From: an uncultured Chitinophagales bacterium
GTDB taxonomy: Bacteria > Bacteroidota > Rhodothermia > Balneolales > HLUCCA01
DNA length: 61,192 nucleotides
Direction: 5' to 3'
NCBI GenBank assembly: GCA_964412365.1
Contig: CAYPOI010000005.1
Location: 1 to 61,192 of the forward strand
Part shown: positions 15,953-25,391 of the stretch, piece by piece
Position numbering within the stretch: position 1 is the first letter of the stretch
Layout of the letters: every line of letters begins with the position of its first letter
Position numbers and translations under genes: made by a program
The notes under the pieces: generated by a model
What the model was told of the DNA's origin: nothing
Databases searched by the model: none
Seen by the model: only the letters and a program-made list of their open reading frames with translations

Positions 15953-17059
15953 TCACACTAAATCGAACTCTTTCCCTGCCGATTGTCGTATGATATTTTC
16001 GCATTCTAATGTGAGCAATTGTGTGAGAAGGATAGGCATCGAGCGTTTTAACCGGTCTTGCAACACATCGATATGTTGCCGACCCATCTCATCCAACAAC
16101 CGGCATATCGCGAGCAAATCCTCACTCAGCTCCACGCTTTTCCACCTGGGTTGAGGGGTTTCGACTCGAACACCGTTGGTCAACCACGGGAGTTCTTCAA
16201 GCATATCTCCGACCGACTCGACCAGCTTTCCGGTGCCTTCGCGGATGAGCCGATGCCCGCCACCCCCCTTTTTGGACGTGAGCGGATGGGGTATGACAAA
16301 CACTTCCCGGTTTTGATCGATCGCCAGTCGCGCGGTGATCATACTGCCTCCTGTCAGACCGGTTTCTACGACAAGAACGCCGAGGCTTAGTCCGCTCACG
16401 ACCCGATTCCGTACCGGGAAGTTCATGTAATCGGGTTTGGTACCGGGCGGAAATTCGGAGATTACGGCCCCACCCGTATCGATGATCTGCTCGGCGAGAT
16501 AGGTGTTCACACGCGGATAGATGCGGTCGATACCCGAACCCAGCACGGCAATGGTCTTCCCTTTCTGTTCGATGGTGACCTTATGGGCGATGGTATCGAT
16601 GCCGTAGGCCAAACCGGATATCACATTCAGTCCGGCACCAACAAGTCCTTGCGAGAACGCTTCCGCCATTTCACGTCCGTACACAGACGGCATGCGGGTG
16701 CCGATCACGCCCATCCCAGGCTCACTGAGGCAGTTCACATCCCCATTCACCCATAAGAGTAATGGCGGATCGAAAATCTCCTTGAGTTGCGCGGGATAGC
16801 GGGGATCATCGAGCGGAAGCAGATGGACGCCCAGCGTATGGGCTTTATCCAAAATGCGGTCGACTTCCTCCCATCCGGAAAAGGATAGGATTCCGTGCGC
16901 GACGGTTTTCCCGATGCCTTGGATAGACAGCAGATCGCGGGCTTTGAGCCGGAAGATGGATTCCGGCTCGGGAACAACAGAGAGTAACGTCTTGCTTCGG
17001 CGGGCGCCGAGGTTAGGAATCAGACTGAGGGCGATGATCGTACGTAGGGGATCCTGCAT
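15953..17059 (-). CDS. dprA: DNA-processing protein DprA
   Basis: It has IPNLGARRSKTLL (HhH-like N-terminus), a Rossmann-like core (VISGLAYGIDTIAHK, VLGSGIDRIYP) and a C-terminal winged-helix-like tail. Its start overlaps the obg 3' end by 47 nt. Confidence 0.88.
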   Translation of the reverse strand: MQDPLRTIIALSLIPNLGARRSKTLLSVVPEPESIFRLKARDLLSIQGIGKTVAHGILSFSGWEEVDRILDKAHTLGVHLLPLDDPRYPAQLKEIFDPPLLLWVNGDVNCLSEPGMGVIGTRMPSVYGREMAEAFSQGLVGAGLNVISGLAYGIDTIAHKVTIEQKGKTIAVLGSGIDRIYPRVNTYLAEQIIDTGGAVISEFPPGTKPDYMNFPVRNRVVSGLSLGVLVVETGLTGGSMITARLAIDQNREVFVIPHPLTSKKGGGGHRLIREGTGKLVESVGDMLEELPWLTNGVRVETPQPRWKSVELSEDLLAICRLLDEMGRQHIDVLQDRLKRSMPILLTQLLTLECENIIRQSAGKEFDLV

Positions 17060-18032
17060 CCGGTAGTGCGAGTTTGGCCCAGATGCGTTCTTTCAGCTCG
17101 CTCAGGTTATGGCCAGTGGCGGCCGACACGGCGATCCAATCATCCGGGAGGTTAGGGGGTTCTTCCAACCGGTATCCTTCCTTCAGATCCATCTGCGTGA
17201 TCACCACCAAGCGCTCTTTGAGAAGCAGGTCTTCGCGATACTCCTTCATCTCATTGATGAGGACGTCGTACTCCGCTTGGATGTCGGACATGCAACTGAT
17301 GATCAGCAACAGCATCCGATTGCGTTCGATGTGGCGCAGAAACCGCGTGCCGAGCCCTTTCCCGAGATGCGCGTCTTCGATGATGCCGGGGATGTCGGCC
17401 ATCACGAAACTGCGGTAATCGGGGAACGCCACCACGCCCAAATTGGGCTCAAGCGTGGTGAACGGATAATCCGCGATTTTCGGCTTTGCGGCTGAGAGCG
17501 ATGCGAGCAGCGTGCTTTTTCCAGCGTTCGGATACCCCACTAAGCCCACTTCCGCGATCAGTTTCAGCTCGATCTCCACGATGATATGCTCTCCAGGCAT
17601 GCCGGGTTGGGCATACTTCGGAGTCTGATTCGTATCGGATTTGAAATAGTGGTTTCCTTTACCGCCCTGTCCGCCTGCCGCGATCACCAGTTCTTGGCCG
17701 TCTTCGGTGATTTCACCGAGCCAGCGACGGGTTTCGAACTCATACGCCACCGTGCCAAGCGGCACATCCAGAATGATGGGCGCGCCATCGCGACCCGAGC
17801 GGATGCCGCCCTCACCGTGATTGCCGTGGTCGGCCTTCATGAATTTGCGGTAGCGCAAATCCAGAAGCGTGTTCATGTTTCGGCTGCCACGGAGGATGAT
17901 GTTGCCACCACGTCCCCCATCGCCCCCATCAGGACCGCCCATGGGAACAAATTTTTCCCGGCGGAAGTGAACGGAGCCTGGGCCGCCGTTTCCGGCTTCC
18001 AAGTAGAGTTTGGCGTAATCAGCGAATCGCAT
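17013..18032 (-). CDS. obg: GTPase Obg/CgtA
   Basis: It has the Obg fold (MRFADYAKLYLEAGNGGPGSVHFRREKFVPMGGPDGGDGGRGGNIIL). The G domain has GYPNAGKSTLL, DIPGIIEDA and TQMD. Confidence 0.95.
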   Translation of the reverse strand: MRFADYAKLYLEAGNGGPGSVHFRREKFVPMGGPDGGDGGRGGNIILRGSRNMNTLLDLRYRKFMKADHGNHGEGGIRSGRDGAPIILDVPLGTVAYEFETRRWLGEITEDGQELVIAAGGQGGKGNHYFKSDTNQTPKYAQPGMPGEHIIVEIELKLIAEVGLVGYPNAGKSTLLASLSAAKPKIADYPFTTLEPNLGVVAFPDYRSFVMADIPGIIEDAHLGKGLGTRFLRHIERNRMLLLIISCMSDIQAEYDVLINEMKEYREDLLLKERLVVITQMDLKEGYRLEEPPNLPDDWIAVSAATGHNLSELKERIWAKLALPDAGSPTYDHRPQSDS

Positions 18033-18102: not shown

Positions 18103-21100
18103 TTAGGAACGAAAGGTATGGATGATGGCGTCTTTGTAGCCGAGTGTGCGCGCCCGACGGTACAGAAGGACCGCGTCTTCGAGTCGATCAGTGGGCCTTG
18201 AGCGCACAAAATATTGGTTTCCGATCTGAATCACATAGTTTTGGATTCCGGCTCGGCTGGTCAATCGTTGTGAAAGTTGGTACGCCTGCGCTTGAGTATT
18301 GAACAATCCGAACTGCACGGTGAATTCCATATCACGACTGTTCACATTCGGCTGGGTGATGAGGAACGCGTCTTTGAGATCCGTTTCAGACCGCAGACGG
18401 TCGCGTTCGGTGGATGCTGTCAAGAAATTGCTCATCGGCTCAAGCACCACTTTGAACTGGTTGAGGATCGCATCAAACAGCATGTGGCCTTTCAGGCCGT
18501 ATCGGGTGTTGATATCGGCGATATGACGAACCGCAGCCAGCGAATCCGAGAACGAGCCCACTTGAATCGCATAGAAGACGTCCTCGGTGGCGAAAATTTG
18601 CTCGCTGATGATGAACGCATCGGAGAATTGGGTTTTGCGCAGCGCGTTGATGGCGGCGAGCGCGTTTTCCAGCCCTTCGATCTCCGTGCTGAAGACGCGG
18701 TAATTGTCCCATCGGCGGCTGTATTGGATCTCATGCACCACCCCGGTCTGCTCCTCGATCTCCATCTTAGCCATGATGGCGCGAGCCAATGTGCTCATCG
18801 TGGCGGTCTGAACTCTGAAATATTGCGGTTTTACCACCACAGGTTCCACCACCGGTTCTTCAACCACAGGCACCGGAATCGGACGCAGTTTCAGATCGAA
18901 ATTCAATCCGGCGATGAAATCCCCTTCCGGAATCGATTGGACGGTGAAATCGATGAACGCGGGATGGGAATCCGATCTCAGAATATTGAGCTGGGTGGTG
19001 TCCACTTGAATCCGATACTCGCCTGGCGGTACTTCCATCGCATAGAACGATCCGTCGAAGAAGGTGATCACTTCCTTGCGCTCGTTCGTGGCCAAGTTGG
19101 TGTAGTAGAGACGCAAGCCACTGATGGACTGCACGTTGCCAGTGGCCGTTTCTCGCGTGGCTCCACCTTCAAAAATGCCGCTCGTACGGAAGGGGATTGA
19201 CAGGATTTTGTGCTGATTCGGATCGGTGATCACACCAAAACGCTCGATCGACGGAACCAATACCGGATTCTCCACCGCAGCCTTGTTCACTTCCACATCG
19301 TACTGGCGATATTGAAGCATTTGGGAATAAATGGCGAACCCTTTCACGGCGTGATACCGAGAACCGGCACCTTGGAAACGCAGGATGTTACCAGGTACCG
19401 ATTGCTCTTCCTTGTCTTTCACACCATTGTCATTGTTGTCGATATAGAGGTCGGCGATGACGGCCGAACGTCCTACCTGGCCTCGGTTGTCGAACCATAG
19501 CAGATTCATCGAAGGTTCATACGCCACCGCACCCCGAATCGATTGGTTCGACGACCATGCCTGGCTCGTGACACGGGTATTGGCACTGGTTCGGACGTAT
19601 TTGAAATCGAAACTAAGGGTCAGGAAAAACGCCGTGACATTGGTCGGTACGATGCGGGTCATGCTGAATTGGATCCGACCATCTCTTAGAAAACTCCGTG
19701 ACATTGTGAGATCGAATCGCTCCGGGTTGTGAATCGCATGAATGGCGTCGTACTGCGCACGCAAGAACATGCCACGCAATGGCAGCCAGACGCTGTTGTC
19801 ACGAGGCATCGTATATGTTGCCGAAACCTGATATCGGTCTTGAATGAGCTTCTCGCCAGTCGCATTCAGCACGCGGCTCGATCGGCGAAATCCACCACGT
19901 GTGGACACTTTTCCAAACCGCGAGTTCAAATCCAGACTGGTGCTTGATAGGATGAAAGCGGGAAATTGTGACCGGTCAAATGACGTCCGCACCGAAATTG
20001 GAGCCTTTTCGTAGGGGATGTTCACAAACAAGGCACCACCGGACTGATTCATGAGTCCGGTGGTGGCGATATCTGCCGATTCCGCATAAACGGTGTAATA
20101 GGCATTTGCGAAATCGCCTCTGGTGGTTTGATAGTACACATCCGATTTCAGGAAATTGCTGGGTGAAAACTCGGTGTTGACGAACAGGCCATCTTTAAGG
20201 CTGGCGTTGATGGTGGCGGATGTGAAGTTCTTCGTAACGTTGGATGGGGTTCTCAAGTATTCCGATGTGGCTCCAACGGTGAGATTTGGTGAGATCCCGT
20301 ATCCGCCGCGCACGTAGCCAAACTGATCATCACCACCTTCAAACACATTATCGTCCATTCCATACCCGGCGTCGTACCTGAATTCACCTTTGGGTACGAA
20401 ATTGAACGGGATACGGATGGTCCGGTTCGATTCGATCAGTTCGCCACCCGGACCATAGATTACCAACTTGATGTCGTTCGGACCATAGACGATGGGAATC
20501 TGAAACGTGAACCGTCCTTGATCGTCAGTGGTTGTGAAATCCGTGAGGCGATCGTTAATGAACAGCTCCACCTCCGAATCGGGCATCGTCAGCTCCGATA
20601 TGGTATAGAAATCGAACACCCGATCCGGATATAAGGGCTCATTCGTGAACCGGACGCCAGTCATGTTGCTTTTCAAGGTGCCACCAGTCGCATTGATATC
20701 GCCCACGAGGGTTTGCGACAACCAGGGATTGTCGCCATGGTAGTACCGATACCGCCAACTGTTGACCCCCGCTTCGGTTCCGGATTCGCTTCTCGCCACT
20801 TGCGAATTGACTTGGACATCTCCACCCAATAGTTCGGAACCAGTGATGAGCGATAAACTGTTGGTGAGCGAATTGCGGCTACTCAGATTTTGCTGATACG
20901 CATAATCCAGGAACCCTCCGTTGAAAAAACGAGGCTGACGTTTAAAGGCCACAGGAAATTCACCCCTCGACGCTGATTTCTCCCTTTCCAATCTCTCACG
21001 TAGACGCAAGCGTTCTTGGCGTAGCACGACTGGCAATTTCAGCGGTGTGACCAAACGTAGCATCAGATTCGAAAAATCGACGCGGAACTCAAGTTGAAAC

Positions 21101-21474
21101 ACGTCTTCAAATACAGCCTGGTCCAAATACAGATCCAACTCTCCCAGATATATCTGGTCTGCCGAAATACGAGTGGTGTTACCAGAGAGGGTCACAAACT
21201 GGTTTATAAAATCAACCACATACGGTTGCTTGTCGTTCAAATATGTACCGCGTGCAGTTGTGCCATTCGCATCCAAGGTGATTGGGATGTACAGTTGGCG
21301 GAACAATTCAGAGATCGGCAACAGGAACGCCTGCGTATCGGAATCGTAGTAGGCGATAAGGTTAATGTTTATACCGCCCTGATAATTGAATTGCAGAAAC
21401 ACCTCGTCGATCTCTCGCGCTGAGAGCGAAGATGACCAAACTGACAGAAGAAGAATGAAAATAAGCCGGTGCAA
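18103..21474 (-). CDS. usher-like outer-membrane assembly protein fused to three C-terminal SPOR repeats (1123 aa)
   Basis: It has a TTG start and a signal peptide (MHRLIFILLLSVWSSSLSA).
- The N-terminal domain resembles an usher NTD: ...LLPISELFRQLYIPITLD... and EFRVDFSNLMLRLVTPLK.
- An usher signature-like stretch lies at aa 300-357 (nt 20404-20577): SEVELFINDRLTDFTTTDDQGRFTFQIPIVYGPNDIKLVIYGPGGELIESNRTIRIPF. Compare the classical pattern V.V..NG......VP.GPF.I.DL....G.L.V.I.E.DG......VPY.
- A long Y/G/S-rich beta region follows, then two Ig-like C-terminal modules (EVPPGEYRIQVD).
- A Pro-rich linker (RPIPVPVVEEPVVEPVVVKPQ) precedes three SPOR-like repeats at aa 885-1123. Confidence 0.6.
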   Translation of the reverse strand: MHRLIFILLLSVWSSSLSAREIDEVFLQFNYQGGININLIAYYDSDTQAFLLPISELFRQLYIPITLDANGTTARGTYLNDKQPYVVDFINQFVTLSGNTTRISADQIYLGELDLYLDQAVFEDVFQLEFRVDFSNLMLRLVTPLKLPVVLRQERLRLRERLEREKSASRGEFPVAFKRQPRFFNGGFLDYAYQQNLSSRNSLTNSLSLITGSELLGGDVQVNSQVARSESGTEAGVNSWRYRYYHGDNPWLSQTLVGDINATGGTLKSNMTGVRFTNEPLYPDRVFDFYTISELTMPDSEVELFINDRLTDFTTTDDQGRFTFQIPIVYGPNDIKLVIYGPGGELIESNRTIRIPFNFVPKGEFRYDAGYGMDDNVFEGGDDQFGYVRGGYGISPNLTVGATSEYLRTPSNVTKNFTSATINASLKDGLFVNTEFSPSNFLKSDVYYQTTRGDFANAYYTVYAESADIATTGLMNQSGGALFVNIPYEKAPISVRTSFDRSQFPAFILSSTSLDLNSRFGKVSTRGGFRRSSRVLNATGEKLIQDRYQVSATYTMPRDNSVWLPLRGMFLRAQYDAIHAIHNPERFDLTMSRSFLRDGRIQFSMTRIVPTNVTAFFLTLSFDFKYVRTSANTRVTSQAWSSNQSIRGAVAYEPSMNLLWFDNRGQVGRSAVIADLYIDNNDNGVKDKEEQSVPGNILRFQGAGSRYHAVKGFAIYSQMLQYRQYDVEVNKAAVENPVLVPSIERFGVITDPNQHKILSIPFRTSGIFEGGATRETATGNVQSISGLRLYYTNLATNERKEVITFFDGSFYAMEVPPGEYRIQVDTTQLNILRSDSHPAFIDFTVQSIPEGDFIAGLNFDLKLRPIPVPVVEEPVVEPVVVKPQYFRVQTATMSTLARAIMAKMEIEEQTGVVHEIQYSRRWDNYRVFSTEIEGLENALAAINALRKTQFSDAFIISEQIFATEDVFYAIQVGSFSDSLAAVRHIADINTRYGLKGHMLFDAILNQFKVVLEPMSNFLTASTERDRLRSETDLKDAFLITQPNVNSRDMEFTVQFGLFNTQAQAYQLSQRLTSRAGIQNYVIQIGNQYFVRSRPTDRLEDAVLLYRRARTLGYKDAIIHTFRS

Positions 21475-21560
21475 CCTGATAAATCCGTAGGGTTTTCCAG
21501 GATGGAAGGTAGGCAGAGCGCTCCGTTCTATTCGATTATAGTTTCCTTATTCCGTCGGAT

Positions 21561-22385
21561 TCAGAACCGTACCTGGAAGGTCTGACGTACCAATTCCATC
21601 GGGATTTGCTCGGAGGAAGGAATGTCGCGCCGATTTGTGGAAAACGACAGCGTTACGGTATAAGCGCCAGGCGTGATTTCATCCAGGGGCATCTGAAAAT
21701 TGCGTTTCCCAGTCTCAAAAATCGTGGTGGTCTGTTGCTCTTCAAAAACAGTTCTGCCGTTGGCGTCTTTGACCACTGCATCGATGGTTCCGAGAAAGGG
21801 AGAGTTGGCGACGAGTGCGACATCGTACACGAGCAATAGATTGCTATCGGTTTTTGCAAATTGAACGTTCGATGGAACCACCGCAGTGCGAAACGCGCCT
21901 TTGGTATAGTAAACCCCAAGAACCTGTTCGAAAATGAAACTGATTTGGGTTCCTACGCCGCCGACTTCTGTTTGCTGAATCACCGCCGATTGAGGAGTGG
22001 ATCGAACTTTCACGCGAGTCCAATACGTGCCGTCTCCAAGCGTGGACGGAGGACGTACCGTAAGGCGTACCGTTTGTCGCTGACCCGGTTCCAACATGAA
22101 CGTGCGCGGAAAACTGCGGACATATTCGGAGATCGATTTCTGATCGGCAAGGGACGTCGAATCGCTGAACATCATCGTGATGTTGCCCAGTGAATCGGAG
22201 ACTGTGTACCCGAATGTAAACTCCACGGCGATCTCTTGCGCCTGATTGGAATTGTTGGTCACCAAAAACGACCCGAAATTATTGTTGCCAATAAAGATGG
22301 TGGTTGGGGATATGGAAACCTGAGCATGAACCGTATTCAACCCGATCAGTGCCACAGTAAAAAAGAGGACAACAAATAGTCTCAT
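21561..22385 (-). CDS. PapD-like periplasmic pilus chaperone
   Basis: The signal peptide is MRLFVVLFFTVALIGLNTVHAQ. The mature N-terminus is VSISPTTIFIGNNNFGSFLVTNNSNQAQEIAVEF, which parallels the PapD-type start V.L..TR.IF......S..V.N....P.L.Q.WI. The segment FPRTFMLEPGQRQTVRL parallels the chaperone PPLFRL.PG..Q.LRI strand. The mature size of about 250 aa fits two Ig-like domains. Confidence 0.62.
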   Translation of the reverse strand: MRLFVVLFFTVALIGLNTVHAQVSISPTTIFIGNNNFGSFLVTNNSNQAQEIAVEFTFGYTVSDSLGNITMMFSDSTSLADQKSISEYVRSFPRTFMLEPGQRQTVRLTVRPPSTLGDGTYWTRVKVRSTPQSAVIQQTEVGGVGTQISFIFEQVLGVYYTKGAFRTAVVPSNVQFAKTDSNLLLVYDVALVANSPFLGTIDAVVKDANGRTVFEEQQTTTIFETGKRNFQMPLDEITPGAYTVTLSFSTNRRDIPSSEQIPMELVRQTFQVRF

Positions 22386-22464
22386 ATGATGCGTTAAGAT
22401 TCGATCTGTAAGGTGAGGTACATTCTTCGTCTAAGTTAGAAGGTAACCATTTCCATGTGTAACG

Positions 22465-22499
22465 CCCTAAAATAAGAAAACATGCGGTATCGCATGTTT
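22465..22499 (-). terminator. second hairpin terminator in tandem
   Basis: The hairpin AAACAUGCG-AUAC-CGCAUGUUU has a perfect 9-bp stem (22478-22499). It is followed by UCUUAUUUU and lies 4 nt after the first terminator's U-tract. Confidence 0.6.
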
Positions 22500-22503
22500 A
22501 TGC

Positions 22504-22538
22504 AAAAAAAAAGGCGGCACCTTTAGAGGTGTCGCCTT
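22504..22538 (-). terminator. Rho-independent terminator after subunit 5
   Basis: The minus-strand RNA is AAGGCGACACC-UCUAAA-GGUGCCGCCUU. This gives a 10/11 bp stem followed by a run of nine U (plus-strand A-run at 22504-22512). It begins 22 nt after the stop codon. Confidence 0.8.
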
Positions 22539-22560
22539 ATAATTCGCTGTTATGTCGAAA

Positions 22561-23091
22561 TCAGAGGTAAATGGCACTTACAGTGAGAGCGCCGGAGTAG
22601 AGTCCGCCGATTGAATCACCTGTTGGTGCTGTAAATGAACCACCAATGTACAAGGTATTACCTGTCGCCAGAGTTGCACCTGTCGTTGTGTTCAACGTGT
22701 ACGCTGTTGGACTGGCAGAATTCACCGCAAAATTTAGAGTAACCGTTATATTAGCGGCCGGAGTAGTTCCACCACCGCTTACATATGGAAGTAAAATGGT
22801 CGGTGTCGCCGTTTGTCCAGAGATACTTAAACCGCTAACTGTGTAAACGGTTGCAGTAGTGGCAGTGGATGTGATTACAGCACGCTTAGCCGTTGAACCT
22901 GCATTGGTAGCGACGTTCGTTGTAGCGAGTACAGAGACGGCGTCTCCGGCCTCTACGTTTCCGTAGACCAAGTCATCTACTTTCGTGAGAGCAAAAGCGT
23001 CGCGAATAGTTGTGGTTACATTCACAGTAGCTGTTTGGGCTATAGAGAGGGCCGGCGCGAGAATTAATGCGAGAACTATGAGTTTTTTCAT
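22561..23091 (-). CDS. DUF4402/SCPU-like secreted subunit 5, candidate major fibre subunit (176 aa)
   Basis: I take the start at ATG 23091 (MKKLIVLALILAPALSIAQ, a signal peptide) rather than the track's 23190. The mature protein is Thr/Ala/Ser/Gly-rich. It has the N-proximal motif DLVYGNV and the C-terminus GGLYSGALTVSAIYL. Two intrinsic terminators follow it. Confidence 0.7.
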   Translation of the reverse strand: MKKLIVLALILAPALSIAQTATVNVTTTIRDAFALTKVDDLVYGNVEAGDAVSVLATTNVATNAGSTAKRAVITSTATTATVYTVSGLSISGQTATPTILLPYVSGGGTTPAANITVTLNFAVNSASPTAYTLNTTTGATLATGNTLYIGGSFTAPTGDSIGGLYSGALTVSAIYL

Positions 23092-23234
23092 GATAATGTC
23101 AGAGTGATAAGAAAGGTTGATAAGAATGTGTTTGTGTGGGCTTTGAGTAAATTTACGTGACTTTGTTCCTGATTTACCATTAGGTTTCATTAATAAAACC
23201 TAGGAGATAGGGTAAATGATGGCCAAATATTAAG

Positions 23235-23774
23235 CTAATCATAGAAAATGATCATGTTCACTTCGCCGAGATATTGGCCTGGAATCGCATCCTTGGTCTC
23301 GACTTTGCCGAAGACAAAGATGGTCATTTGCAGCATGTTCAATTGCTCCTGACCCTCATTCTGAGGCTGAAAGGGAAGGAAAAAATTGGCCTTGTATTGG
23401 TCGACGATCACCGCCCGAGCGTTTCGCCGTCCCGCTTCCAACACCCCGCTATTTGACCAAGCATACGACAGATCCACGCTGATGCGGCACCAATCCTCCT
23501 GGCAGTTCTTGTACTCCTCGTGGATCAGATATTGCGGCGTGTCTATGGAAACACCCACTAGAGAATAAATCAATCCGTTGATGGTGAAGATCCCAACTCG
23601 GGCATCTTCGAGCGTGATCTCCACATCATCGGACATGTTAAGCTGACCAAAATCCAGCTTCAGCTCAGCCTCGATGTTCACTTCGGGTTCCACTTGTACC
23701 GCGAACTGCACGAACTGAGCACTCGTCATCCAAGGAATCCCGAATGCAAACAATGTCAACCAAATGTTACGCAT
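23235..23774 (-). CDS. DUF4402/SCPU-like secreted subunit 4 (179 aa)
   Basis: The signal peptide is MRNIWLTLFAFGIPWMTSAQ. It has the motif KLDFGQL, a CQEDWC pair, and the C-terminus GQYLGEVNMIIFYD. Its ATG overlaps the subunit-3 stop (TGATG). Confidence 0.65.
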   Translation of the reverse strand: MRNIWLTLFAFGIPWMTSAQFVQFAVQVEPEVNIEAELKLDFGQLNMSDDVEITLEDARVGIFTINGLIYSLVGVSIDTPQYLIHEEYKNCQEDWCRISVDLSYAWSNSGVLEAGRRNARAVIVDQYKANFFLPFQPQNEGQEQLNMLQMTIFVFGKVETKDAIPGQYLGEVNMIIFYD

Positions 23775-24343
23775 CAGTTGTAAATGATTTCGATTGTCAC
23801 AGAGTTGGTAAAACTCCCGACCGTTTCGCTACCTGATGTGGTGATGGTGCCACCCACATACAAAAATACAGTTGATAGAGGCAAGGAAGCTTGGGCAATT
23901 TGGGGCGTGGGTGGCGGAGCGGGTGGGCCAGATCCTCGCTTGATCATGGGTATGCGAACCGTACTGGTGACAAATGACGTATTGCCGGTCATGTTGTCGA
24001 GAAAGGTATTCGTATTGTTATAGGCGAAGGTGTAGGTAATCGCGGATCGGCATGAGGATGTCACACATGTATCATCTCCGTTCAAATACACGAATGCGGG
24101 AGCGGTGATGGTGACAAAAATATCGAGATAGCGGATGGCTTCGATGTTGAGCGCGGCCTCATCGCCCGATCCGATCAAAATCACTTTGCTGTCACCGGAA
24201 ACAATGGTTCCGAATGTGAGATTTCGCTCAACAATCAAGTTGGCACTGGAGGTGTAATACGAACCAAAATTGATCTCTTGCGCGTTGAGGGCTGAAGAAG
24301 CACTGATCGTGTAGAGTAAAATAAGGGTCCGTATCCATCTCAT
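23774..24343 (-). CDS. DUF4402/SCPU-like secreted subunit 3 (189 aa)
   Basis: The signal peptide is MRWIRTLILLYTISASSALNAQ, from ATG 24343 (24346 is a GTG). It has the motif NLTFGTI, a CVTSSC pair, a Pro-rich insert (GSGPPAPPPTPQ), and the C-terminus GSFTNSVTIEIIYN. Confidence 0.65.
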   Translation of the reverse strand: MRWIRTLILLYTISASSALNAQEINFGSYYTSSANLIVERNLTFGTIVSGDSKVILIGSGDEAALNIEAIRYLDIFVTITAPAFVYLNGDDTCVTSSCRSAITYTFAYNNTNTFLDNMTGNTSFVTSTVRIPMIKRGSGPPAPPPTPQIAQASLPLSTVFLYVGGTITTSGSETVGSFTNSVTIEIIYN

Positions 24344-24861
24344 CACAAGTACTCGATTTCAATCGTGAACTCGCCTTGATAGGCGCCAAATTGGATGTTC
24401 TCGATGCTGGCGAAGCCACCGATCCAAAAATAAAATTCCCCGGTGCTGCTCATGGTGAGTGTGCGATTCTCTTGAGTCAAGATCTCGGAGGTGAGTTGAT
24501 TGTCTGTAACCGCACCGGCAACGGTGTACGTGAAGTTGATGGTACTTCCACCCCCAATCCGAATCAGTTCCCGTTGTTCAATGAAGGAAACTCGGATGGC
24601 CGCATTGGGCCTGCCGGAGGCTTTCATCAGTCCGGCACCCGCATCTGTTTTCGGATCGAGACGAAGCTCGTTCGCATCGATGTTGAGCCGACCAAAATTC
24701 ATGTTGGAGATGGTAACCAGCTCCACCGTGGAAAGAATTGAGGTTGAAACTGTAACGATGACTCTATCGTCCGACCGCGCAGGATTTGATTGACCAAGAA
24801 CCAATGTTGGCAACAGCATGATTCCTAAAAAACATATCGTACGTCCTGTTTGTCTACGCAT
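24343..24861 (-). CDS. DUF4402/SCPU-like secreted subunit 2 (172 aa)
   Basis: The signal peptide is MRRQTGRTICFLGIMLLPTLVLGQ. It has the motif NMNFGRL and the C-terminus GAYQGEFTIEIEYL. Confidence 0.68.
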   Translation of the reverse strand: MRRQTGRTICFLGIMLLPTLVLGQSNPARSDDRVIVTVSTSILSTVELVTISNMNFGRLNIDANELRLDPKTDAGAGLMKASGRPNAAIRVSFIEQRELIRIGGGSTINFTYTVAGAVTDNQLTSEILTQENRTLTMSSTGEFYFWIGGFASIENIQFGAYQGEFTIEIEYL

Positions 24862-24926
24862 GAGAGTAAAATACCGATTTCAATTCAGCTCGCACCGTTA
24901 GAACCGATTAACAATCGGATACACGC

Positions 24927-24959
24927 AAAAACCCACCCGGATGGTCAAATCCGAGCGGG
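24927..24959 (-). terminator. Rho-independent terminator after subunit 1
   Basis: The minus-strand RNA is CCCGCUCGGAU-UUGACC-AUCCGGGUGGG followed by UUUUUG. The 11-bp stem has two G-U pairs in this orientation; in the opposite orientation those positions would be A-C mismatches. Confidence 0.7.
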
Positions 24960-24986
24960 TAGTTTGCAATCAGGAGATTCGTTCGG

Positions 24987-25391
24987 TCAGTTGTAAAAGG
25001 CCGATACGATGTAGGTCTGTGGCATCGAGCTCATGTGAGCGGTGTCGATCGTGATGCGCTTGACCTGCGTTGGGTTGGTTTTGCCGTAGCTTAGAATGGT
25101 TTCGTTCGACGAAAGGGTGTAGGTGGCTTCAACCGATTGCGTGTTCGGGATGGATGTACTGAGCGTGGTCATGGATGTGTCTCCTGAGTTCTGTGATTGC
25201 ATGACAGAAAACACCACGTCGCTTAGGCTGGAGCTCGTCACCCGGATTTCATCATCCGAGCTTGACAGGTCCAAGCGGGTCGATTCAACTACCGTCGCAC
25301 GGATCTGCATGGAAGCAGAGGCGGTCCGCTGAGCCATTGCGGCTGTTGCGGTGAGTGCGATAAAGAGGAAGGTTGTGATCGAGCGTTTCAT
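24987..25391 (-). CDS. small Ser/Thr-rich secreted protein (134 aa), divergent first gene of the fibre cluster
   Basis: The signal peptide is MKRSITTFLFIALTATAAMAQ. The C-terminus YIVSAFYN keeps the penultimate Tyr, but the protein lacks the xLxFG and GxYxG motifs of subunits 2-5. Its own terminator follows it. Confidence 0.6.
   Translation of the reverse strand: MKRSITTFLFIALTATAAMAQRTASASMQIRATVVESTRLDLSSSDDEIRVTSSSLSDVVFSVMQSQNSGDTSMTTLSTSIPNTQSVEATYTLSSNETILSYGKTNPTQVKRITIDTAHMSSMPQTYIVSAFYN

What the first reader, a model, noticed from the sequence alone, without database searches (positions are those of the whole stretch)
18106..18822. Usher-like protein carries three C-terminal SPOR repeats, suggesting a peptidoglycan-tethered assembly platform
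The last 239 aa follow a Pro/Val/Glu linker (RPIPVPVVEEPVVEPVVVKPQ). They form three units of about 72-76 aa, each with the SPOR pattern.
- Unit 1: YFRVQTATMS...YRVFSTEIEGLENALAAINALRKTQFSDAFIISE (nt 18601-18822).
- Unit 2: FYAIQVGSFSDSLAAVRHIADI...FKVVLEPMSNFLTASTERDRLRSETDLKDAFLITQ (nt 18352-18579).
- Unit 3: EFTVQFGLFNTQAQAYQLSQRL...YFVRSRPTDRLEDAVLLYRRARTLGYKDAIIHTF (nt 18112-18327).

Usher C-terminal domains face the periplasm, so the topology is consistent with cell-wall binding. SPOR domains are known to bind denuded glycan strands, typically at septa. I am not aware of any described usher with a SPOR module. The fusion could localise or anchor fibre assembly.
Basis: partly seen in the sequence, partly recalled or inferred. 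Interest (0 to 1): 0.7.

Follow-up and report, generated by a model that had tools for sequence, protein, structure and literature searches.

The report
Pilus usher with SPOR cell-wall anchor
The outer-membrane pore that assembles surface fibres (an usher) in a Balneolales bacterium ends in three cell-wall-binding SPOR domains, a design I found no description of but which is common in this bacterial group and probably fastens the fibre-assembly machine to the cell wall.

Summary
ORF 18103-21474 (-) encodes a 1123-aa secreted protein. Its last 239 aa are three SPOR units (Pfam PF05036, E=3e-11 for the protein, 8.5e-14 for the tail). Each unit is predicted as beta-alpha-beta-beta-alpha-beta and keeps the glycan-binding Gln.

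The first ~865 aa give no Pfam Usher hit. However, the AlphaFold model (pLDDT 80.6) has the full usher layout, and its 17 best PDB matches are all FimD/PapC (E down to 7e-29). The upstream gene folds like a PapD/FimC chaperone. Five DUF4402-like subunit genes precede it. This is therefore a divergent chaperone-usher fibre operon.

The fusion is not a one-off:
- The usher family has about 6800 clusters at 50% identity, from Balneolota, Bacteroidota, Zixibacteria and Ignavibacteria.
- About 37% of 168 sampled members carry 1-5 SPOR units, most often three. Others carry an OmpA-like domain, a TPR tail or no tail.
- TPR-tailed ushers are always followed by FliG-like, MotA-like and MotB-like genes, and there the MotB-like protein carries the triple SPOR.

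The best reading is a non-covalent peptidoglycan tether for the assembly platform. This is inferred, not shown. I found no paper describing it. It is a new variant of a known kind.

The parts
18103..21474 (-). Gene for the usher with a triple SPOR tail (1123 aa, TTG start, stop codon at 18103-18105)
   Evidence: ORF list and translation. Relatives share the architecture. AlphaFold model has pLDDT 80.6. Best PDB fold matches are FimD/PapC.
21418..21474 (-). Signal peptide, aa 1-19 (MHRLIFILLLSVWSSSLSA)
   Evidence: Read directly from the sequence. The N-terminus aligns with relatives. The database gene call of 1099 aa starts downstream and would lose this peptide.
21049..21411 (-). Predicted periplasmic N-terminal domain, aa 22-142
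   Evidence: Model secondary structure. Full-length alignments to FimD/PapC.
19516..20925 (-). Predicted 24-strand outer-membrane barrel, aa 184-653, with the plug inserted
   Evidence: Strand count from DSSP on the model: 6 strands, then the insert, then 18 strands. Matches the PapC/FimD translocation pores 2vqi and 3ohn, E about 1e-15.
20410..20619 (-). Plug-like beta-sandwich, aa 286-355, inserted between barrel strands 6 and 7
   Evidence: Model. This is the region where relatives P0008 and P0013 hit Pfam Usher. It is the best-conserved part of the core across the family.
18886..19467 (-). Two C-terminal beta-sandwich domains, aa 670-863 (equivalents of usher CTD1 and CTD2)
   Evidence: Model. 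Weak CarboxypepD_reg and SdrD_B hits.
18823..18885 (-). Pro/Val/Glu-rich linker, aa 864-884
   Evidence: Sequence. pLDDT below 50 at aa 867-882. Least conserved segment, 38-48% identity among close relatives.
18601..18822 (-). SPOR unit 1, aa 885-958 (Q889; atypical QTATM motif)
   Evidence: Pfam SPOR 22.5 bits when scanned alone. Predicted beta-alpha-beta-beta-alpha-beta. 84-95% identical among close relatives.
18352..18579 (-). SPOR unit 2, aa 966-1041 (Q971, F975)
   Evidence: Pfam SPOR 14.7 bits when scanned alone, below the threshold. Predicted fold. Matches unit 2 of relatives best.
18112..18327 (-). SPOR unit 3, aa 1050-1121 (Q1054, F1058)
   Evidence: Pfam SPOR 23.9 bits when scanned alone. 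NCBIfam aligns it to the RlpA SPOR region. Predicted fold.
21561..22385 (-). Periplasmic chaperone candidate, 274 aa, two beta-sandwich domains
   Evidence: Model pLDDT 88.5. Foldseek best hits are FimC, PapD, Caf1M, CfaA, SafB and CsuC, E=1e-9 to 1e-7 over both domains. One source names a homologue 'P pilus assembly chaperone PapD'. There is no Pfam hit.
22561..23091 (-). Subunit-like secreted protein (probable start at the internal ATG; the ORF extends to 23190)
   Evidence: Signal peptide, the position of the LNFG motif (here LVYG) and the C-terminal G.Y.G...V.v.Y motif shared with DUF4402 proteins. A terminator-like hairpin follows at 22478-22499.
23235..23774 (-). Subunit-like secreted protein, 179 aa
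   Evidence: Aligns with DUF4402-type subunits of related operons.
23774..24346 (-). Subunit-like secreted protein, 190 aa
   Evidence: Pfam DUF4402 E=4.8e-4, below the threshold. Alignment.
24343..24861 (-). Subunit-like secreted protein, 172 aa
   Evidence: Pfam DUF4402 E=1.2e-3, below the threshold. Alignment.
24987..25391 (-). Subunit-like secreted protein, 134 aa, first gene of the cluster
   Evidence: Signal peptide and C-terminal ...VSAFYN motif. A terminator-like hairpin follows at 24931-24960.

Best explanation
Genes 18103-25391 (-) form a divergent chaperone-usher fibre operon of a Balneolales bacterium. It holds five DUF4402-type subunits, a PapD-like periplasmic chaperone and an outer-membrane usher.

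The usher works like FimD/PapC. Its N-terminal domain would recruit chaperone-subunit complexes. A plugged 24-strand barrel would be the exit pore. Two C-terminal domains would hold the growing fibre base.

An extra module follows the last C-terminal domain: a roughly 20-residue Pro-rich hinge and three SPOR domains, all in the periplasm. The SPOR domains most likely bind peptidoglycan glycan strands that lack stem peptides, three sites giving avidity. This would fasten the assembly platform non-covalently to the cell wall. The design is the same as OmpA: barrel, Pro-rich hinge, wall-binding domain. A tether would pass pulling forces on the fibre to the sacculus rather than to the fluid outer membrane, and would fix the usher's position.

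Shown here: the domain identities, the predicted folds, the operon context, and the distribution and conservation of the tail. Inferred: peptidoglycan binding by this tail, the ligand, and the anchoring role.
For: SPOR identity.

Binding residues. The glycan-contacting Gln is present in all three units. It is conserved across 28 three-unit relatives in 26, 21 and 24 of 28 cases for units 1, 2 and 3, with an aromatic residue at +4 in most (role of these residues from PMC6895207).

Usher fold and topology. Pfam Usher passes its threshold in relatives P0008 (29.5 bits) and P0013 (27.5 bits).

Chaperone fold. The order subunits, chaperone, usher is conserved in L001, L002, L006 and L045.

Selection on the tail. 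The SPOR units are as conserved as the barrel or more so, while the linker drifts. Units are positionally orthologous across proteins: same-unit comparisons average 33-36 bits against 21-23 bits for different units.

A second wall-binding module at the same position. An OmpA-like domain replaces or precedes SPOR on some ushers. P0019 has OmpA at E=1e-16 plus one SPOR. 5 of 168 sampled members have an OmpA-like tail.

Same block on a known anchor. In loci with TPR-tailed ushers a triple-SPOR block sits on a MotB-like protein, behind its OmpA-like domain. MotB proteins anchor to the wall. Units of the two blocks match in order: diagonal 20-22 bits against 11-16 off the diagonal for the L007 group.
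Against: - There is no experiment and no solved structure.
- Unit 2 alone is below the Pfam threshold.
- Unit 1 lacks the Gly and the aromatic residue of the QxGxF motif (QTATM), yet it is the most conserved segment of the whole protein. It may do something other than bind glycan.
- SPOR ligands (denuded glycans) are enriched at division septa and scarce elsewhere (PMC6895207). A uniform anchor is therefore not the obvious outcome.
- About 37% of sampled family members have no tail at all, so the tail is an accessory.
- The model's pTM is 0.53, so the relative placement of domains is unreliable.
- The protein itself has no Pfam Usher hit at E<=0.1.
- The collinearity with the MotB-like SPOR block is weak for the window's own subclade (L001, L003, L059).
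Confidence: 0.7

Rival explanations
1. Targeting rather than anchoring. The triple SPOR tail recruits the usher to sites rich in denuded glycans, namely the division septum and hence the new poles. Fibres would then be built at defined places or times. Mechanical tethering would be secondary.
For: All characterised SPOR domains localise to septa by binding denuded glycans (PMC6895207). The key Gln is conserved in all three units.
Against: A triple-SPOR block also sits on MotB-like stator proteins, and OmpA-like domains, which are not septum-specific, can take its place on the usher. This points to generic wall attachment. Nothing in the sequence can distinguish the two readings, and they are not mutually exclusive.
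Confidence: 0.2
2. Protein docking or regulation. The tail, and unit 1 in particular, binds a protein partner or the usher's own periplasmic domains. It would act as a gate or auto-inhibitor, or as a receptor for a periplasmic factor, rather than bind peptidoglycan.
For: Unit 1 departs from the QxGxF motif yet is the most conserved segment, at 84-95% identity. In sister loci the equivalent position holds a TPR tail, which is a protein-binding module.
Against: Units 2 and 3 keep the canonical Gln and Phe. The Gln is conserved in unit 1 as well (26 of 28). No protein-binding SPOR domain is known to me (own knowledge).
Confidence: 0.07
3. The system is not a fibre usher. The barrel would export or display DUF4402 proteins as a surface layer or coat, or serve as a general pore, with the tail simply stabilising an abundant outer-membrane protein, as in OmpA.
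For: The subunits are an uncharacterised family (DUF4402) with no PDB sequence match. None of them is a two-domain tip adhesin.
Against: A PapD-like chaperone fold, the plug and N- and C-terminal domains of the usher, and subunits with an N-terminal alternating strand and a C-terminal ...Y-x motif together make up the full donor-strand assembly toolkit.
Confidence: 0.05

Closest known systems
Chaperone-usher pilus ushers FimD and PapC (PDB 3rfz, 9fw9, 7lhg, 2vqi) and the archaic Csu system of Acinetobacter (CsuC chaperone, 6fqa)
   Same: The predicted N-terminal domain, the 24-strand barrel with a plug between strands 6 and 7, and two C-terminal beta-sandwich domains match. A two-domain PapD-like chaperone is encoded next door. 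Several small secreted subunit genes lie upstream.
   Different: Sequence identity is only 10-13%, and the protein has no Pfam Usher, PapC_N or PapC_C hit at E<=0.1. The subunits are DUF4402, not Fimbrial or SCPU. There is an extra Arg/Glu-rich helix (aa 147-169) between the N-terminal domain and the barrel. A C-terminal hinge and three SPOR domains are added; I found no usher described with them.
OmpA of E. coli and OmpA-family outer-membrane proteins
   Same: The overall design is the same: an outer-membrane barrel, a Pro-rich hinge and a periplasmic peptidoglycan-binding domain (own knowledge). Some relatives of this usher carry a genuine OmpA-like domain at this position.
   Different: The barrel here is a 24-strand secretion pore rather than an 8-strand anchor. 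The binding module is SPOR (glycan strands without peptides) rather than OmpA-like (stem peptide), and it is present in three copies.
RlpA and the other SPOR proteins (FtsN, DamX, DedD, CwlC)
   Same: The SPOR profile, the RNP-like fold and the conserved Gln on strand 1 are shared. RlpA is also attached to the outer membrane and reaches the wall from that side.
   Different: Those proteins act in cell division or wall remodelling and mostly carry one SPOR domain. Here three SPOR domains are fused to a secretion pore. Automatic annotation already mislabels a fragment of this tail as 'cell division protein FtsN'.
Inverse autotransporters with periplasmic LysM (intimin, YeeJ; PMC5595812), and secretin or stator anchors (PilQ AMIN domains, MotB)
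   Same: These are outer-membrane or envelope-spanning export and adhesion machines with a built-in peptidoglycan-binding domain (for YeeJ; the rest is own knowledge).
   Different: The barrel families and the binding domains differ, and none belongs to the chaperone-usher pathway.

Membership tests
Outer-membrane usher (Pfam PF00577; FimD/PapC type) | Sequence match to the Usher profile | tested here: inconclusive
   The window protein has no hit at E<=0.1. 3 of 20 relatives hit at E<=0.01. P0008 (35% identical to the window protein) and P0013 pass the gathering score, at 29.5 and 27.5 against 27.1 bits, over the plug region. Homology is therefore transitive.
Outer-membrane usher (Pfam PF00577; FimD/PapC type) | 24-strand beta-barrel with a plug domain inserted between strands 6 and 7 | tested here: met
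   In the predicted structure only: 6 strands (184-277), a 6-strand sandwich (286-355), then 18 strands (365-653). The PapC and FimD pore structures are matched at E about 1e-15. The topology of real ushers is from own knowledge of the PapC and FimD structures.
Outer-membrane usher (Pfam PF00577; FimD/PapC type) | Periplasmic N-terminal domain and two C-terminal Ig-like domains | tested here: met
   The predicted domains span aa 22-142 and aa 670-863. Foldseek alignments to full-length FimD and PapC span 910-938 columns at E=1e-28 to 4e-21.
Chaperone-usher pathway | Cognate PapD-like two-domain periplasmic chaperone in the operon | tested here: met
   Gene 21561-22385 gives a model with pLDDT 88.5. 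Its best PDB matches are FimC, PapD, Caf1M, SafB, CfaA and CsuC, E=1e-9 to 1e-7. Sequence profiles find nothing.
Chaperone-usher pathway | Subunits with an incomplete Ig fold, assembled by donor-strand exchange | not testable with these tools
   Only sequence hints are available: a signal peptide, an N-terminal alternating strand and a C-terminal G.Y.G...V.v.Y-x motif. 11 of 16 aligned subunits are DUF4402.
SPOR domain (Pfam PF05036) | Profile match above the gathering score | tested here: met
   Whole protein 43.8 bits, tail 52.1 bits, units alone 22.5, 14.7 and 23.9 bits, against a threshold of 21.
SPOR domain (Pfam PF05036) | RNP-like beta-alpha-beta-beta-alpha-beta fold, with a conserved Gln (and usually Phe at +4) on strand 1 | tested here: met
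   The predicted secondary structure of all three units fits. Q889, Q971 and Q1054 are present, as are F975 and F1058; unit 1 has M893. The reference for these residues is PMC6895207.
SPOR domain (Pfam PF05036) | Binding to peptidoglycan glycan strands that lack stem peptides | not testable with these tools
   This needs a sacculus pull-down or a glycan-binding assay.
Archaic (sigma, Csu/SCPU-type) chaperone-usher systems | Subunits of the SCPU family (PF05229) | tested here: not met
   No SCPU hit was found, even at E<=1, for 16 subunits of three operons; they hit DUF4402 instead. The chaperone model matches CsuC no better than it matches classical chaperones.

The most novel reading that the evidence does not exclude
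This usher family may belong to an envelope-spanning, ion-driven fibre machine.

In the sister class, a TPR-tailed usher is co-transcribed with three further components. One is a FliF/FliG-like rotor protein (signal peptide, periplasmic domain, one transmembrane helix, then FliG middle and C-terminal domains). The others are a flagellar-type MotA and a MotB that carries an OmpA-like domain and the triple SPOR.

The window's protein would be the motor-less derivative, in which the stator's cell-wall anchor has been moved onto the usher. The usher itself would then become the fixed, wall-bound element against which the fibre is extruded, or turns. If so, the SPOR tail is a stator-type anchor rather than a passive tether, and chaperone-usher assembly, thought to need no energy source, would have energised relatives.
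Probability: 0.15. Interest if true: 0.85.

Novelty: new variant of a known kind. Interest (0 to 1): 0.6.

Why it matters
Chaperone-usher pili are a textbook system, known almost entirely from Proteobacteria. In the textbook picture the usher is a free-floating outer-membrane pore with no link to the cell wall.

This locus shows a large, unstudied branch of the pathway in Balneolota, Bacteroidota, Zixibacteria and Ignavibacteria. In roughly 40% of sampled members the usher has a built-in peptidoglycan-binding module.

That gives a directly testable idea. In bacteria that may lack a Braun-type lipoprotein, fibre bases may need their own wall anchor to withstand pulling.

It also extends the known roles of SPOR domains beyond cell division. 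It warns that such tails are being auto-annotated as FtsN.

The cultured carrier Gracilimonas mengyeensis makes experiments possible. The motor-linked sister loci could open a separate question about energised fibre assembly.

Tried and rejected
- Sequence searches of the whole protein, the family profile, the chaperone profile, the subunit profile and the tail against PDB sequences gave nothing useful for the usher, chaperone or subunits. Only fold comparison worked.
- Pfam gave no Usher, PapC_N, PapC_C or PapD hits at E<=0.1 on the window's own proteins.
- I considered that the subunits were SCPU (Csu-type) pilins. No SCPU hit appeared at E<=1.
- The third protein search, with the tail alone, returned only three fragments of close relatives. 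It could not show where else the triple-SPOR block occurs.
- I looked for a separately encoded SPOR protein next to tail-less ushers and found none in the fetched loci.
- I looked for FliG-, MotA- or MotB-like genes in the window and found none.
- Literature searches found no description of this system. The terms were usher with SPOR domain, DUF4402, PF14352, archaic chaperone-usher with Bacteroidetes, usher with peptidoglycan-binding domain, and FliG-like with stator and usher.
- The window has no tRNA genes and no Rfam matches.
- Promoter- and terminator-like sites are no more frequent than in shuffled sequence.
- N-terminal extensions seen in some family members are neither fused chaperones nor fused subunits.
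Full report
**What is in the sequence**

ORF 18103-21474 on the minus strand is uninterrupted. From a TTG start it encodes 1123 aa, beginning with a typical signal peptide.
- Pro/Val/Glu linker: aa 864-884
- unit 1: aa 885-958
- unit 2: aa 966-1041
- unit 3: aa 1050-1121

**The SPOR repeats are real**

Pfam SPOR (PF05036, gathering score 21 bits) scores as follows:
- whole protein: E=3.2e-11
- the 261-aa tail: E=8.5e-14
- the three units scanned alone: 22.5, 14.7 and 23.9 bits

Unit 2 is below threshold on its own. NCBIfam aligns the tail to the SPOR end of RlpA. A profile of the family weakly matches the solved CwlC SPOR domain (1x60, E=0.057).

The AlphaFold2 model was built with 20 relatives and has mean pLDDT 80.6. 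It gives each unit the beta-alpha-beta-beta-alpha-beta order of the RNP-like SPOR fold, with low-confidence linkers between units.

The crystallographic study of RlpA-SPOR with denuded glycans identifies two conserved ligand contacts on strand 1: a Gln, and usually a Phe four residues later. It also describes a basic patch on the sheet (PMC6895207). The window protein has Q889, Q971 and Q1054. It has F975 and F1058. Unit 1 has M893 in a QTATM motif.

**The first 865 residues are an usher by fold, not by profile**

Neither the whole protein nor its first 883 aa hits Pfam Usher at E<=0.1. PDB sequence searches are empty. The model, however, shows this layout:
- an N-terminal domain (aa 22-142);
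- a charged helix (aa 147-169);
- six barrel strands;
- a six-strand beta-sandwich (aa 286-355);
- eighteen more strands, to aa 653;
- two beta-sandwich domains (aa 670-863).

Twenty-four strands with a plug between strands 6 and 7, flanked by one N-terminal and two C-terminal periplasmic domains, is the FimD/PapC architecture (own knowledge of those structures).

Foldseek against the PDB returns FimD or PapC for all 17 best hits. E-values run from 7e-29 to 2e-14, and up to 938 columns align. The next hits are unrelated porins at E about 1e-7.

Sequence homology can be traced through relatives. P0008 (35% identical to the window protein, E=8e-141) and P0013 pass the Usher gathering score over the plug region.

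**The neighbourhood is a chaperone-usher operon**

Immediately upstream, gene 21561-22385 encodes a 274-aa secreted protein with no Pfam family. Its model (pLDDT 88.5) has two beta-sandwich domains. Its best PDB matches are the pilus chaperones FimC, PapD, Caf1M, SafB, CfaA, EcpB and CsuC, at E=1e-9 to 1e-7.

Five small secreted proteins are encoded further upstream (22561-25391). Two give sub-threshold DUF4402 hits. When aligned with the subunits of related operons, they share four features:
- a signal peptide ending in AQ;
- an alternating N-terminal strand;
- an LNFG motif;
- a C-terminal G.Y.G...V.v.Y-x motif.

Eleven of the 16 aligned proteins hit DUF4402, the best at E=1e-29, and none hits SCPU. 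The order subunits, chaperone, usher recurs in L001, L002, L006 and L045.

**Organism and family size**

The nearest genomic relative (83% identity) is a Balneolales MAG.

A profile of the usher core finds 6805 clusters at 50% identity with E<=1e-3, and 2711 with E<=1e-30. A scan of one genome per species finds 389 relatives. They come from Balneolales, Bacteroidales, Prolixibacteraceae, Lentimicrobiaceae, Zixibacteria, Ignavibacteriaceae and Rhodothermales.

**The tail is a recurrent, selected accessory**

I classified the tails of 168 family proteins with home-made profiles:

| Tail type | Proteins |
|---|---|
| SPOR-like units | 62 |
| OmpA-like domain | 5 |
| TPR | 17 |
| No tail (900 aa or less) | 62 |
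| Other | 24 |

Two proteins carry two of these modules and are counted in both rows.

Among the SPOR-tailed proteins, 13 have one unit, 19 have two, 28 have three, one has four and one has five.

Pfam on 43 tails (the window's own plus 42 from genomic loci) finds SPOR in 21, TPR in 14 and OmpA in 2.

Units are positionally orthologous. Unit n of one protein matches unit n of another at 33-36 bits, against 21-23 bits for different units. The Gln is kept in 26, 21 and 24 of 28 proteins for units 1, 2 and 3.

Among close relatives, the SPOR units are 69-95% identical, the barrel 57-85% and the linker 38-48%. The triple module is therefore old and under purifying selection.

**Evidence bearing on function**

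The position after the last periplasmic domain, and the Pro-rich hinge, put the tail in the periplasm. Three observations favour wall attachment.
- An unrelated wall-binding domain occupies the same position in some relatives. P0019 has an OmpA-like domain (E=1e-16) followed by one SPOR.
- In every TPR-tailed locus with enough downstream DNA (15 of 15), the usher gene is followed on the same strand by four genes: a 620-650-aa FliG-like protein, a small TPR protein, a MotA-type protein, and a MotB-like protein with MotB_plug, OmpA-like and three SPOR units. On a MotB-like protein this block can hardly be anything but a wall anchor.
- The MotB-borne units and the usher-borne units match in order, though weakly: diagonal 20-22 bits against 11-16 off the diagonal for the L007 group, and less clearly for the window's own subclade.

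No SPOR-tailed or tail-less locus has these motor genes, and the window has none.

**Explanation adopted**

I take the tail to be a non-covalent, multivalent peptidoglycan tether for the fibre-assembly platform, analogous in layout to OmpA. It would transmit load to the sacculus and immobilise the usher.

Whether the preference of SPOR domains for denuded glycans also places the usher at septa or new poles cannot be decided from sequence.

Unit 1 deviates from the motif yet is the best-conserved segment. It may have an additional role.

**Comparison and novelty**

The protein works like a FimD/PapC usher. It meets the structural definitions in prediction, but not the Pfam profile. I file it as a divergent usher of a DUF4402-type chaperone-usher branch, not as a Csu/SCPU-type system.

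Within the searchable library, no paper mentions an usher with a SPOR or other peptidoglycan-binding domain, nor DUF4402. The nearest functional analogues are:
- OmpA;
- RlpA;
- inverse autotransporters with LysM (PMC5595812);
- secretin and stator anchors.

It is a new variant of a known kind. It is widespread in databases but, as far as I could find, undescribed.

**Limits**

All folds are predictions. The pTM of 0.53 means that the arrangement of domains is uncertain. Tail classification beyond Pfam used home-made profiles, which can cross-hit: the P0019 tail was picked up by both the SPOR and the OmpA-like profiles, although Pfam confirms that it has both domains. Literature searches cover open-access texts only.

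Noticed in passing
L006:8965-16926 (also L005, L009-L016, L018, L020, L039, L052, L060): Ushers of this family that end in a TPR tail are always followed on the same strand by four tightly packed genes. The first is a 620-650-aa protein with a signal peptide, a periplasmic domain, one transmembrane helix and FliG middle and C-terminal domains (PDB FliG E=5e-24, with weak FliF and FliG_N matches). The others are a small TPR protein, a flagellar-type MotA/PomA-like protein, and a MotB-like protein with an OmpA-like domain and three SPOR units. This is a flagellar-motor-like rotor and stator module linked to a chaperone-usher operon. One literature search found no description.
   Followed up: partly
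window 20968-21036 (aa 147-169): A long Arg/Glu-rich helix (LPVVLRQERLRLRERLEREKSAS) is predicted between the usher's N-terminal domain and the first barrel strand. I do not recall an equivalent in FimD or PapC. Pro148 and Arg155 are invariant or nearly so in the family.
   Followed up: no
window 24931-24960 and 22478-22531, minus strand: Terminator-like hairpins lie just after the first subunit gene (24987-25391) and after the last subunit gene (22561-23091), ahead of the chaperone gene. The placement recalls the attenuators after major-pilin genes in classical operons. The number of such sites in the region is not above the shuffled expectation.
   Followed up: no
window 15953-18032; L001:11575-13663: The obg and dprA genes follow the usher gene directly, with a 70-bp gap, on the same strand. 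The same usher-obg-dprA order is kept in L001, whose usher is only 35% identical. The usher-SPOR gene may therefore share transcription or a long-standing position with housekeeping genes.
   Followed up: no
P0190 (fragment 77% identical to window aa 883-1123): A metagenomic fragment of this usher tail is named 'cell division protein FtsN' by its source. Such tails on short contigs are likely to be counted wrongly as division proteins.
   Followed up: no
L028, L033, L038: Contigs that carry this usher family are assigned in their MAG titles to Thioalkalivibrio, Nitriliruptoraceae (Actinomycetota) and a Methanofastidiosia archaeon. All three come from the same sediment series. These are probably binning errors rather than real occurrences outside the FCB group.
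   Followed up: no
P0098, P0123, P0128, P0129, P0143, P0145, P0156, P0161: Some family members carry 160-675 extra residues before the usher core. These contain repeats of a motif such as 'LISPG..PGE.I....P.F.W..V..A..Y'. They match neither the chaperone profile nor the subunit profile.
   Followed up: partly
window 21403-21474: The database gene call for this protein (P0001, 1099 aa) is 24 residues shorter than the ORF, so it presumably starts 24 codons downstream of the TTG and would remove the signal peptide. Relatives align from the longer start.
   Followed up: partly
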